In this document: positions 1,693 to 2,803 of the stretch, piece by piece
Layout of the letters: every line of letters begins with the position of its first letter
Numbering within the stretch: position 1 is the stretch's first letter
NCBI RefSeq assembly: GCF_013122565.1
Contig: NZ_CP053258.1
Direction: 5' to 3' (one strand)
Source: Escherichia coli
GTDB lineage: Bacteria > Pseudomonadota > Gammaproteobacteria > Enterobacterales > Enterobacteriaceae
DNA length: 64,000 nt
The notes under the pieces: model-generated
Seen by the model: the letters and a program-made list of their open reading frames with translations, nothing else
What the model was told of the DNA's origin: nothing
Database searches by the model: none
Program-made: the position numbers and the translations under genes

Positions 1693-1699
1693 CACTAAC

Positions 1700-1725
1700 G
1701 CCCGCACATTGCTGCGGGCTTTTTG
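1700..1725 (+). terminator. Rho-independent terminator after uspF
   Basis: hairpin gcccgcacattgctgcgggc followed by ttttt. Confidence 0.6.
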
Positions 1726-1867
1726 ATTCATTTCGCAAATGTGCTGACATTTTCCCCTCTAATCCGTACCATACACGCCACAGTTTTTATATCAGATTTC
1801 TTATGCTGGGCGTTCCGGCATGACGCATACTCTTCTGATGCCATATAACGAATTGAGTCGCTTTTAA

Positions 1868-2803
1868 ATGTCGCAAAATCAAGAAATTAGCAAGAAAGAA
1901 CAATACAATCTGAACAAATTACAAAAACGCCTGCGTCGTAACGTGGGCGAAGCCATAGCTGACTTCAATATGATTGAAGAAGGCGATCGCATCATGGTTT
2001 GCCTCTCCGGGGGTAAAGACAGCTATACCATGCTGGAGATTCTGCGCAATTTGCAGCAAAGCGCGCCAATCAATTTTTCACTGGTGGCTGTTAACCTCGA
2101 TCAAAAGCAACCGGGCTTCCCGGAACACGTTCTGCCCGAGTATCTTGAAAAGCTGGGCGTTGAGTACAAGATTGTTGAAGAGAACACTTACGGTATCGTG
2201 AAAGAGAAGATTCCAGAGGGCAAAACCACTTGCTCACTGTGTTCTCGGCTACGTCGCGGTATCCTTTATCGCACCGCAACGGAACTGGGGGCGACGAAGA
2301 TCGCGTTGGGCCACCATCGTGACGATATCCTGCAAACGTTGTTCTTAAATATGTTCTACGGCGGCAAGATGAAAGGTATGCCTCCGAAACTGATGAGCGA
2401 TGATGGCAAACATATCGTTATTCGTCCACTGGCCTACTGCCGCGAGAAAGATATTCAGCGATTTGCCGATGCAAAAGCGTTCCCGATTATTCCGTGCAAC
2501 CTGTGCGGTTCACAGCCTAACCTGCAACGACAAGTGATTGCTGACATGTTGCGTGACTGGGATAAACGTTATCCGGGGCGTATCGAGACGATGTTCAGCG
2601 CGATGCAGAATGTGGTGCCGTCGCATCTGTGCGATACCGACCTGTTCGATTTTAAAGGCATTACCCACGGTTCTGAAGTGGTTAACGGCGGTGATCTGGC
2701 GTTTGATCGCGAAGAGATCCCACTACAACCGGCGGGCTGGCAGCCTGAAGAAGATGAAAATCAGTTGGATGAGTTACGGCTGAATGTGGTTGAAGTGAAA
2801 TAA
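1868..2803 (+). CDS. ttcA: tRNA-cytidine(32) 2-sulfurtransferase TtcA (311 aa)
   Basis: PP-loop motif [11 protein letters not shown], Cys-rich CSLCSRL and CNLCG motifs; full-length family member. Confidence 0.92.

What the first reader, a model, noticed from the sequence alone, without database searches (positions are those of the whole stretch)
1693..1950. ompN-uspF-ttcA are contiguous: no Rac prophage at the ttcA attachment site
In K-12 (from memory) the roughly 23 kb Rac prophage is integrated at the 5-prime end of ttcA, separating it from uspF/ompN and leaving the ttcC remnant. Here uspF ends at 1692 and a complete ttcA with an uninterrupted N-terminus ([18 protein letters not shown]...) starts at 1868. 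This would be the unoccupied attB state, useful for defining the exact integration core and the native ttcA promoter.
Basis: partly seen in the sequence, partly recalled or inferred. Interest (0 to 1): 0.4.

Follow-up and report, generated by a model that had tools for sequence, protein, structure and literature searches.

The report
Empty Rac prophage site in ttcA
This E. coli window has the common, already described empty state of the Rac prophage integration site at the start of ttcA, but the short spacer in front of ttcA also turns out to be a conserved leftover of an older phage integrase gene.

Summary
uspF ends at 1692 and an intact 311-aa ttcA starts at 1868, with nothing phage-like between them. 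In K-12 MG1655 the 23,060-bp Rac prophage sits exactly there. The window equals the K-12 uspF/ttcC junction up to 1917 and the K-12 intR/ttcA junction from about 1875. The two K-12 junctions share an exact 26-bp block, window 1892-1917, where the window has T instead of C at 1909.

The window's TtcA N-terminus, MSQNQEIS, is the variant that Liu et al. 2015 (Sci Rep 5:16074) obtained after Rac excision and found in strains without Rac. The state is common: 2,487 of 5,426 complete E. coli genomes are contiguous here. The finding is therefore correct but already known.

Two results go beyond it.
- Prophages with a different ttcA-mimic sequence (E. coli 042, Rac-SA53) confine the crossover to 15 bp, 1903-1917.
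- The "native" spacer 1737-1820 is a degraded 3' fragment of a Rac-type integrase gene. It is far more conserved than synonymous sites across Escherichia species. Equivalent remnants lie 86-244 nt upstream of ttcA in 32 of 35 species representatives that carry its 22-mer. It contains the best predicted promoter, CTGACA-N17-TACCAT. Promoter function is inferred, not shown.

The parts
1..1117 (+). ompN, 3' part (runs off the window start)
   Evidence: ORF ending at 1117. Colinear with K-12 ompN. RefSeq annotation of matching genomes reads porin OmpN.
1258..1692 (+). uspF (144 aa), complete
   Evidence: ATG at 1258 after AGGAGG, TGA at 1690-1692. Pfam Usp PF00582, E 3.6e-31. Same length as K-12 uspF.
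1700..1724 (+). uspF intrinsic terminator-like hairpin plus T-run
   Evidence: GCCCGCACATTGCTGCGGGC followed by TTTTT.
1737..1820 (+). Degraded remnant of the 3' part of a Rac-type tyrosine integrase gene (box II region; the frame reads KCADIFPSNPYHTRHSFYIRFLMLGVPA)
   Evidence: BLASTP against K-12 IntR residues 345-373: 15/29 identical, E 5e-6. The 22-mer at 1761-1782 is shared exactly with integrase genes or pseudogenes upstream of ttcA in 35 species representatives. Less degraded members of that series hit Pfam PF00589. Identity to other Escherichia species is 100% and 98.8%, against 70-79% at third codon positions of the flanking genes.
1744..1772 (+). Predicted sigma-70 promoter for ttcA, inside the integrase remnant: -35 CTGACA (1744-1749), 17-nt spacer, -10 TACCAT (1767-1772)
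   Evidence: It is the only 9/12 consensus match in the spacer. The block CTG(G/A)nA-N17-TACCAT is kept in 34 of 34 aligned remnants. Degraded remnants tend to have CTGACA where coding copies have CTGGnA. There is no transcription start site evidence, so function is inferred.
1805..1819 (+). Small conserved hairpin in the putative ttcA 5' UTR (GCTGG-GCGTT-CCGGC)
   Evidence: Read from the alignment. L064 and L027 have C in place of the T that forms the G-T pair. Function is unknown and it was not tested further.
1868..2803 (+). ttcA, complete (311 aa), with the 'without Rac' N-terminus MSQNQEIS
   Evidence: ORF. 305/311 identical to K-12 TtcA, with four of the six differences at residues 2, 3, 6 and 8. 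Pfam PP-loop PF01171.
1866..1917 (+). Part of ttcA that Rac-type phages carry as an imperfect copy in attP (start codon plus the first 16-17 codons)
   Evidence: Three-way alignment with both K-12 junctions. The window aligns to both K-12 sides over 1875-1917. Five IMG/VR viral contigs hold the contiguous attP, made of the intR arm, ATGCAAGAAAATCAACAAATTACAAAGAAAGAACAATACAAC, CTGAACAA and GTAAGGGC.
1892..1917 (+). 26-bp block identical between the K-12 attL and attR (AAGAAAGAACAATACAACCTGAACAA); the window has T at 1909
   Evidence: The K-12 copies lie at 1411899-1411924 and 1434959-1434984, which are the annotated Rac boundaries. KU052037 annotates 26-bp att sites.
1903..1917 (+). Narrowest robust interval for the strand-exchange point (ATACAATCTGAACAA)
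   Evidence: In E. coli 042, Rac-SA53 and two IMG/VR prophages, attL carries phage sequence GAGATATACAAC and attR carries bacterial GAACAATACAAY. The two differ at 1900-1902 on the left and at 1918 on the right. The 042 and K-12 integrases are 99% identical.

Best explanation
Window 1693-1950 is the unoccupied bacterial attachment site (attB) of Rac-type prophages. These phages use the heterobivalent tyrosine integrase IntR to recombine within codons 12-17 of ttcA. Their attP carries its own start codon and a look-alike of the first ~17 codons, so integration keeps ttcA intact. Integration swaps the first residues of TtcA, separates ttcA from its upstream spacer, and leaves a 17-codon stub (ttcC) next to uspF. 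Here no element is inserted, so ttcA keeps the MSQNQEIS N-terminus and its 175-bp upstream spacer. This state is common and already described. The spacer itself is second-hand: positions 1737-1820 descend from the 3' end of an older integrase gene of the same family. That fragment has been kept under purifying selection, most likely because it holds the promoter from which ttcA is transcribed. That last step is inferred.
For: Shown:
- K-12 has Rac exactly between ttcA and uspF.
- The window is the left half of the uspF-side junction joined to the right half of the ttcA-side junction.
- The contiguous attP predicted from the K-12 junctions exists in five viral contigs.
- IntR has arm-binding and catalytic domains, PF12167 and PF00589.
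- 2,487 of 5,426 genomes are contiguous, and 2,908 carry an intR-ttcA junction.
- Liu et al. 2015 showed experimentally that Rac excision yields this N-terminus and that Rac-free strains have it.
- The remnant matches IntR by BLASTP at E 5e-6.
- The 22-mer lies upstream of ttcA in 32 of 35 species hits, with only one intact integrase among them.
- Eight of nine informative metagenome loci, chosen by the ttcA core and not by the remnant, also have an integrase-derived block.
- The spacer is 173/175 and 170/175 identical to two other Escherichia species whose third codon positions differ by 22-27%.
Against: Nothing contradicts the empty-attB reading. For the remnant and promoter part:
- No transcription start site data could be retrieved.
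- The promoter call is a 9/12 consensus match, in a 1-kb region where shuffled sequence gives 1.4 such hits.
- The window's own 51-aa frame has no Pfam hit.
- The 35-species set was selected on the exact 22-mer, so conservation of the 22-mer itself is by construction.
- Third-position identity is also somewhat raised in the first 150 nt of ttcA after the core (45/50 and 41/50). Part of the conservation could therefore reflect local recombination rather than selection on the spacer.
Confidence: 0.93

Rival explanations
1. The site was once occupied in this lineage and was cured by precise IntR/XisR excision, rather than never having been occupied in recent history.
For: Rac is excision-proficient, and excision restores exactly this sequence and N-terminus (Liu 2015; NAR 2023). 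54% of complete genomes are occupied, and occupancy varies even within O157:H7 (one search compared).
Against: Precise excision leaves no trace, so the sequence cannot tell the two histories apart. No Rac-like sequence occurs elsewhere in the 64 kb.
Confidence: 0.3
2. The spacer is conserved, and integrase-like blocks recur upstream of ttcA, because of repeated renewal rather than promoter function. Homologous recombination between the old remnant and the intR gene of a newly integrated prophage would delete the prophage and refresh the remnant.
For: The remnant and the live intR are direct repeats flanking the prophage. Several species have 5'-truncated integrase genes with a complete 3' end at the live-phage distance of 230-232 nt from ttcA (L032, L036, L046, L048), which is the product such a deletion would give. 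The shared 22-mer is identical in remnants and in a live integrase, L033.
Against: Escherichia species and another genus (L027) share one and the same 107-nt architecture next to uspF, so no renewal has happened since they diverged. Even so, the spacer is 97-99% identical where synonymous sites are 22-27% diverged. The K-12 live intR differs from the remnant at 3 of the 22 positions.
Confidence: 0.2
3. The similarity of 1737-1820 to integrase genes is coincidental and the spacer is ordinary native intergenic DNA.
For: The window's frame has no Pfam hit. The protein-level alignment is only 29 residues long.
Against: E 5e-6 for a single comparison. The match is in frame and covers the catalytic box II motif NPYHTRH. 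It occupies the same position relative to ttcA as the live intR. A graded series runs from an intact integrase through truncated pseudogenes to short blocks.
Confidence: 0.04
4. The contiguity is an assembly artefact in which a prophage was collapsed or dropped.
For: None found.
Against: The same join occurs in 2,487 complete genomes. The join is base-perfect at the known att core.
Confidence: 0.01

Closest known systems
Rac prophage attB/attL/attR in ttcA of E. coli K-12 (Liu et al. 2015, Sci Rep 5:16074; also reviewed in PMC6379469 and re-observed in PMC11014345)
   Same: Same locus, same core, same TtcA' N-terminus (MSQNQEIS) as the excision product and as Rac-free strains. The window is simply one more Rac-free genome.
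   Different: The window has a synonymous T at 1909 inside the 26-bp block. The integrase remnant in the upstream spacer is not mentioned in those papers, as far as the held text shows.
e14 / phage 21 integration into the 3' end of icd (Hill et al. 1989, as summarised in PMC6379469)
   Same: A phage integrates inside a host open reading frame and carries a substitute gene end in attP. The gene stays functional, a short pseudogene stub is left at the other junction, and the protein end differs between lysogens and non-lysogens.
   Different: In icd the 3' end is replaced. Here the 5' end is replaced, so the start codon, ribosome-binding site and promoter also have to come from the phage side.
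Lambda-type heterobivalent tyrosine integrase systems (arm-binding domain plus catalytic domain; short overlap region flanked by core sites; arm sites in attP)
   Same: IntR has PF12167 and PF00589. The attP arms carry repeated TTTGCCCC motifs on both sides. The exchange is confined to at most 15 bp.
   Different: The cleavage positions, overlap length and arm-site function were not determined here. The patterns at position 1909 do not fit a single fixed exchange point in any simple way.
Degraded ('grounded') prophage remnants and co-option of their sequences as host regulatory DNA
   Same: An integrase pseudogene fragment sits next to the attachment site, as is commonly seen beside tRNA-gene att sites. 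It is under purifying selection and contains a promoter-like element.
   Different: Here the fragment is only ~85 bp and unannotated (also in K-12). It is shared across the genus and paralleled in many genera at the same gene.

Membership tests
Unoccupied attB of Rac/IntR-type prophages in ttcA | uspF and ttcA adjacent, with no phage gene between them | tested here: met
   175-bp spacer only. No Rac-interior match anywhere in the window.
Unoccupied attB of Rac/IntR-type prophages in ttcA | Sequence equals the left half of the uspF-side junction joined to the right half of the ttcA-side junction at the shared core | tested here: met
   Alignments. Across the 326 bp compared, the differences from the reconstructed K-12 attB are four substitutions (1891, 1909, 1930, 1957) and one T-run indel.
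Unoccupied attB of Rac/IntR-type prophages in ttcA | Core sequence shared with attP present | tested here: met
   25 of 26 bases at 1892-1917 match. The 8 bp CTGAACAA (1910-1917) are exact. Natural attP seen in five viral contigs.
Unoccupied attB of Rac/IntR-type prophages in ttcA | TtcA N-terminus of the non-lysogen type | tested here: met
   [10 protein letters not shown] in the window against MQENQQITKK in K-12. Matches TtcA' of Liu 2015.
Unoccupied attB of Rac/IntR-type prophages in ttcA | Acts as a substrate for IntR-mediated integration | not testable with these tools
   Indirect only. Lysogens exist whose junctions carry the same T at 1909 (E. coli 042, NCTC9064, O121).
TtcA, tRNA 2-thiocytidine(32) synthetase (PP-loop ATPase) | PP-loop domain with SGGKDS motif, and near-identity to the characterised K-12 protein | tested here: met
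   PF01171, E 1.2e-13. 98% identity over 311 aa, with SGGKDS at residues 47-52.
Tyrosine recombinase gene (Pfam PF00589), for the 1737-1820 segment | Open reading frame encoding a catalytic domain that the family model recognises | tested here: not met
   Only a 28-codon in-frame stretch remains and there is no Pfam hit. It is a descendant of such a gene, not a member.
Sigma-70 promoter, for 1744-1772 | -35 and -10 hexamers with 16-18 nt spacing | tested here: met
   CTGACA, 17 nt, TACCAT: 9 of 12. Conserved across remnants.
Sigma-70 promoter, for 1744-1772 | Transcription start about 7 nt downstream of the -10 hexamer | not testable with these tools
   Supplements of four start-site mapping papers were cut or lacked the locus.

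The most novel reading that the evidence does not exclude
The 'empty' Rac attachment site is not virgin DNA. The uspF-ttcA spacer is a remnant of about 85 bp from an older Rac-type integrase gene. It has been kept almost unchanged since before the Escherichia species diverged, and similar remnants sit upstream of ttcA in at least 30 species of Enterobacterales. The proposed reason is that the 3' end of the integrase gene contains the outward-facing promoter (CTGRCA-N17-TACCAT) on which ttcA depends once a phage has cut it off from its own promoter. When the prophage decays, deletions can remove everything except this promoter-sized block. On this reading, both the ttcA promoter and the variable TtcA N-terminus of present-day enterobacteria are recycled phage DNA.
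Probability: 0.45. Interest if true: 0.55.

Novelty: already known. Interest (0 to 1): 0.27.

Why it matters
As stated, the finding matters little. It is one more Rac-free E. coli, a state shared by 46% of complete genomes and analysed experimentally in 2015.

The secondary result has more value. If the spacer in front of ttcA really is a co-opted integrase fragment that provides the gene's promoter, it would be a compact, testable example of how repeated integration into a gene's 5' end permanently rewrites the regulation and N-terminus of a housekeeping gene across a bacterial order. It would also correct the assumption that the Rac-free allele is the 'ancient' native state.

The 15-bp limit on the exchange point is a small practical refinement for anyone engineering IntR-based integration.

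Tried and rejected
1. I tried to decide on which side of position 1909 the strands exchange.
- E. coli 042 has T at attR and C at attL.
- NCTC9064, O121 201805972 and 2024CK-00188 have T at both junctions.
- Five natural K-12-type attP sequences have C, and four 042-type attL sequences have C.
- T is a genuine bacterial allele in empty sites and in other genera.
- These patterns fit an exchange in 1910-1917, an exchange in 1903-1908, or position 1909 lying inside the overlap. I could not choose between them, so I report only the 15-bp interval.

2. One search, a 96-nt A-rich query, returned no match. That is a low-complexity masking artefact, not a biological result. It was repeated with longer flanks.

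3. The phage collection held no free attP. The matching 'phage' records are prophages deposited together with host flanks.

4. Transcription start site evidence was sought in the supplements of PMC4782308, PMC7132871, PMC6131387 and PMC4681348. The files were truncated or lacked the locus. PMC4288677 is not held.

5. The literature search for 'ttcC' returned only unrelated acronyms.

6. Rfam found no RNA family in 1693-1867.

7. The source genome was not identified. The best identity to any complete RefSeq E. coli is 99.0% over 20 kb. The E. coli E69 locus L037 is only 92% identical.

Full report
**The observation**

The window begins inside ompN, which ends at 1117. uspF follows at 1258-1692, then a terminator hairpin at 1700-1719 with a T-run. 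A complete 311-aa ttcA runs from 1868 to 2803 and starts [18 protein letters not shown]. dbpA, FnrS, zntB and dgcM follow on the expected strands.

**Comparison with K-12**

The RefSeq record of MG1655 has, in the window's orientation, ompN, uspF, the ttcC pseudogene, Rac (1411899-1434958, 23,060 bp, with intR at the far end) and then ttcA.

BLAST of the whole window against the K-12 region gives two relevant matches. Window 1-1917 equals K-12 1436876-1434959, and window 1875-16577 equals K-12 1411941-1397239. Nothing in the 64 kb matches the Rac interior.

A three-way alignment shows where the window follows each K-12 junction.
- It follows the uspF/ttcC junction up to 1917.
- It follows the intR/ttcA junction from about the start codon onward.
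- The two K-12 junctions share an exact 26-bp block, AAGAAAGAACAATACAACCTGAACAA, which corresponds to window 1892-1917.
- The window has a synonymous T at 1909.
- The K-12 copies of this block coincide with the annotated Rac boundaries.

K-12 TtcA begins MQENQQIT and the window's begins MSQNQEIS. The two proteins are otherwise 98% identical.

**The mechanism, and what is shown directly**

Joining the phage-side halves of the two K-12 junctions predicts an attP. It consists of the intR 3' flank, a start codon, a look-alike of ttcA codons 2-17, and then phage DNA beginning GTAAGGGC. Exactly this contiguous sequence is present in five IMG/VR viral contigs.

The phage therefore carries a substitute 5' end for ttcA. 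Integration keeps the gene intact but exchanges its first residues and leaves the 17-codon ttcC stub beside uspF.

IntR has an arm-binding domain and a tyrosine-recombinase catalytic domain. The attP arms carry repeated TTTGCCCC motifs. Both fit a lambda-type heterobivalent integrase, although arm-site function is inferred.

**How common, and how new**

- 2,487 of 5,426 complete E. coli genomes (46%) have the contiguous arrangement.
- 2,908 have an intR-ttcA junction.
- 1,840 have the K-12-type right junction.

Liu et al. 2015 described attL, attR and attB. They showed that Rac excision changes four N-terminal residues of TtcA to exactly the window's sequence. They also showed that 14 Rac-free E. 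coli and Shigella strains have this N-terminus. A 2019 review and a 2023 paper repeat the picture. The GenBank record of Rac-SA53 annotates 26-bp att sites.

The finding is therefore correct, ordinary and already known.

**Refining the core**

E. coli 042 carries a ~52-kb Rac-like prophage with sitABCD. Its integrase is 99% identical to K-12 IntR. Rac-SA53 and two IMG/VR prophages carry the same variant mimic sequence.
- Their attL reads ...GAGATATACAAC|CTGAACAA|ATTAC.
- Their attR reads ...GAACAATACAAY|CTGAACAA|GTAAGG.

Phage sequence persists to 1902 on one junction and bacterial sequence to 1902 on the other. The two junctions also differ at 1918. The exchange point must therefore lie within 1903-1917 (15 bp).

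Position 1909 does not resolve it further.
- 042 has T at attR and C at attL.
- Three other lysogens have T at both junctions.
- Natural attP sequences have C.
- T is a genuine bacterial allele in empty sites and in other genera.

This leaves 1910-1917, 1903-1908, or an overlap region that includes 1909. A 7-bp overlap of the lambda type would fit only the first option or the last.

**The unexpected part**

I aligned ttcA upstream regions from metagenome contigs that had been retrieved by the ttcA core alone. The window's 'native' spacer lined up with the 3' end of integrase genes.

In frame, window 1737-1820 reads KCADIFPSNPYHTRHSFYIRFLMLGVPA. K-12 IntR residues 345-373 read KRAGIRRRNPYHTRHTFACWLLTAGANPA. 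That is 15 of 29 identical, with E 5e-6 for the single comparison. The matched stretch is the catalytic box II region.

The 22-mer AATCCGTACCATACACGCCACA (1761-1782) occurs in 35 species-representative genomes. These include Escherichia species, Kluyvera, Klebsiella, Raoultella, Enterobacter, Lelliottia, Trabulsiella, Pseudocitrobacter, Franconibacter, Buttiauxella, Cedecea, Hafnia, Serratia and Winslowiella.

In 32 of the 35, ttcA starts 86-244 nt downstream of the 22-mer. Only one, Pseudescherichia vulneris, has an intact 417-aa integrase frame. The others form a graded series.
- Some are 5'-truncated genes that keep a complete 3' end at the live-phage distance of about 231 nt. Some of these still hit Pfam PF00589.
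- Others are short blocks like the one in Escherichia, which lies 107 nt from the ttcA start.

The same remnant sits next to ttcC in K-12 and is not annotated there.

**Is the remnant functional?**

The whole 175-bp spacer was compared between the window and three other genomes.

| Compared genome | Spacer identity | Third-codon-position divergence in uspF and ttcA | Binomial P |
|---|---|---|---|
| Escherichia sp. E1V33 | 173/175 | 22% | 6e-17 |
| E. whittamii | 170/175 | 27% | 1e-17 |
| Contig of another genus (L027) | 146/175 | 44% | 1e-14 |

Divergence resumes immediately inside uspF, where third positions of the last 150 nt are 33/50 identical. The spacer is thus under purifying selection.

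The only good sigma-70 match in the spacer is -35 CTGACA (1744-1749), 17 nt, -10 TACCAT (1767-1772). It lies inside the remnant.

Across 34 aligned remnants the block AAAnnTG-CTG(G/A)nA-N17-TACCAT-ACACGCCACA is retained. Copies that still code for integrase have CTGGnA. Many degraded copies have CTGACA, which is closer to the consensus. In the most degraded copies, homology to integrase ends about 10 nt upstream of the -35 and right after the 22-mer, leaving a promoter-sized block.

The most economical reading has three steps.
1. Rac-type phages carry an outward promoter in the end of int that drives ttcA in lysogens.
2. When the prophage decays, this block cannot be lost.
3. It becomes the host's ttcA promoter.

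This reading is inferred. I could not retrieve any start-site data. An alternative is that remnants are repeatedly renewed by recombination with incoming intR genes. That explains part of the cross-genus pattern, but not the conservation within Escherichia.

**Verdict**

The novelty of the stated finding is nil.

The secondary observation, an unannotated and conserved integrase remnant that probably provides the ttcA promoter, was not found in the literature I could search. It deserves a direct test. It also means the Rac-free allele should not be assumed to be the pristine ancestral state.

Noticed in passing
window 1737-1820 (also K-12 NC_000913.3 between ttcC and uspF; loci L032-L066): The 'native' uspF-ttcA spacer contains an unannotated, strongly conserved remnant of a Rac-type integrase gene. 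The best promoter-like site lies inside it. Equivalent remnants lie upstream of ttcA in 32 of the 35 species representatives that carry the 22-mer.
   Followed up: partly
window 1909; L006/L007 (E. coli 042), L030 (NCTC9064), L031 (O121 201805972): A rare synonymous T/C polymorphism lies inside the 26-bp att block. 042 has T at attR only, while three lysogens have T at both junctions although natural attP sequences have C. A single fixed exchange point does not simply explain this. It may mean that 1909 lies in the overlap region or that alleles move between phage and host.
   Followed up: partly
window 21858-24099: A 2.2-kb insertion relative to K-12 lies between tpx and tyrR. It holds a 698-aa ORF (21964-24060) with no Pfam family. 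It is present in only 32 of 5,426 complete E. coli genomes, where it is annotated as a hypothetical protein.
   Followed up: partly
window ~19448-19477: K-12 1390724-1393139 (ymjC, ymjD, ycjY, pgrR) is absent from the window, and a 30-bp stretch aligns to both sides of the gap. The best-matching E. coli genomes carry about 4 kb more than the window somewhere in the first 20 kb.
   Followed up: no
window ~16574-16577 and ~49723-49725: The K-12 IS5F copy (ynaI-ynaJ spacer) is absent from the window, and 4 bp align to both sides of the gap. In addition, 122 bp of the K-12 puuR-puuC spacer are absent.
   Followed up: no
whole window: No complete RefSeq E. coli genome exceeds 99.0% identity over the first 20 kb, and only 45 records reach 99% over 1100-2900. 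The source lineage seems poorly represented. The human-gut contig L026 is the closest retrieved at the att site, at 98.7% over 5.4 kb.
   Followed up: partly
L006 (E. coli 042), L031 (O121), L004 (ON032529): Rac-like elements at this site often carry the sitABCD iron/manganese transporter next to the uspF-side junction. The record 'Salmonella phage SPF_0923' contains host genes (ompN, uspF, part of a pyruvate-flavodoxin oxidoreductase gene), so it looks like a prophage deposited with its host flank.
   Followed up: no
L001 (K-12) attP arms, both sides of the core: Repeated TTTGCCCC motifs occur on the intR side (2 copies) and on the ynaM side (3-4 copies). They are likely arm-type binding sites for the PF12167 domain of IntR.
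   Followed up: no
literature, PMC11014345 compared with PMC4632033: The 2023 paper reports three base changes and Q6E/T8S after Rac excision. Liu 2015 reports four amino-acid changes. My alignment of the K-12 junctions gives seven base differences and four amino-acid differences at residues 2, 3, 6 and 8.
   Followed up: no
window 2850-2930 and 4570-4687: A REP-like element with a weak naRNA4 match lies between ttcA and dbpA. The FnrS sRNA is on the minus strand at 4570-4687 (134.8 bits), as in K-12.
   Followed up: no
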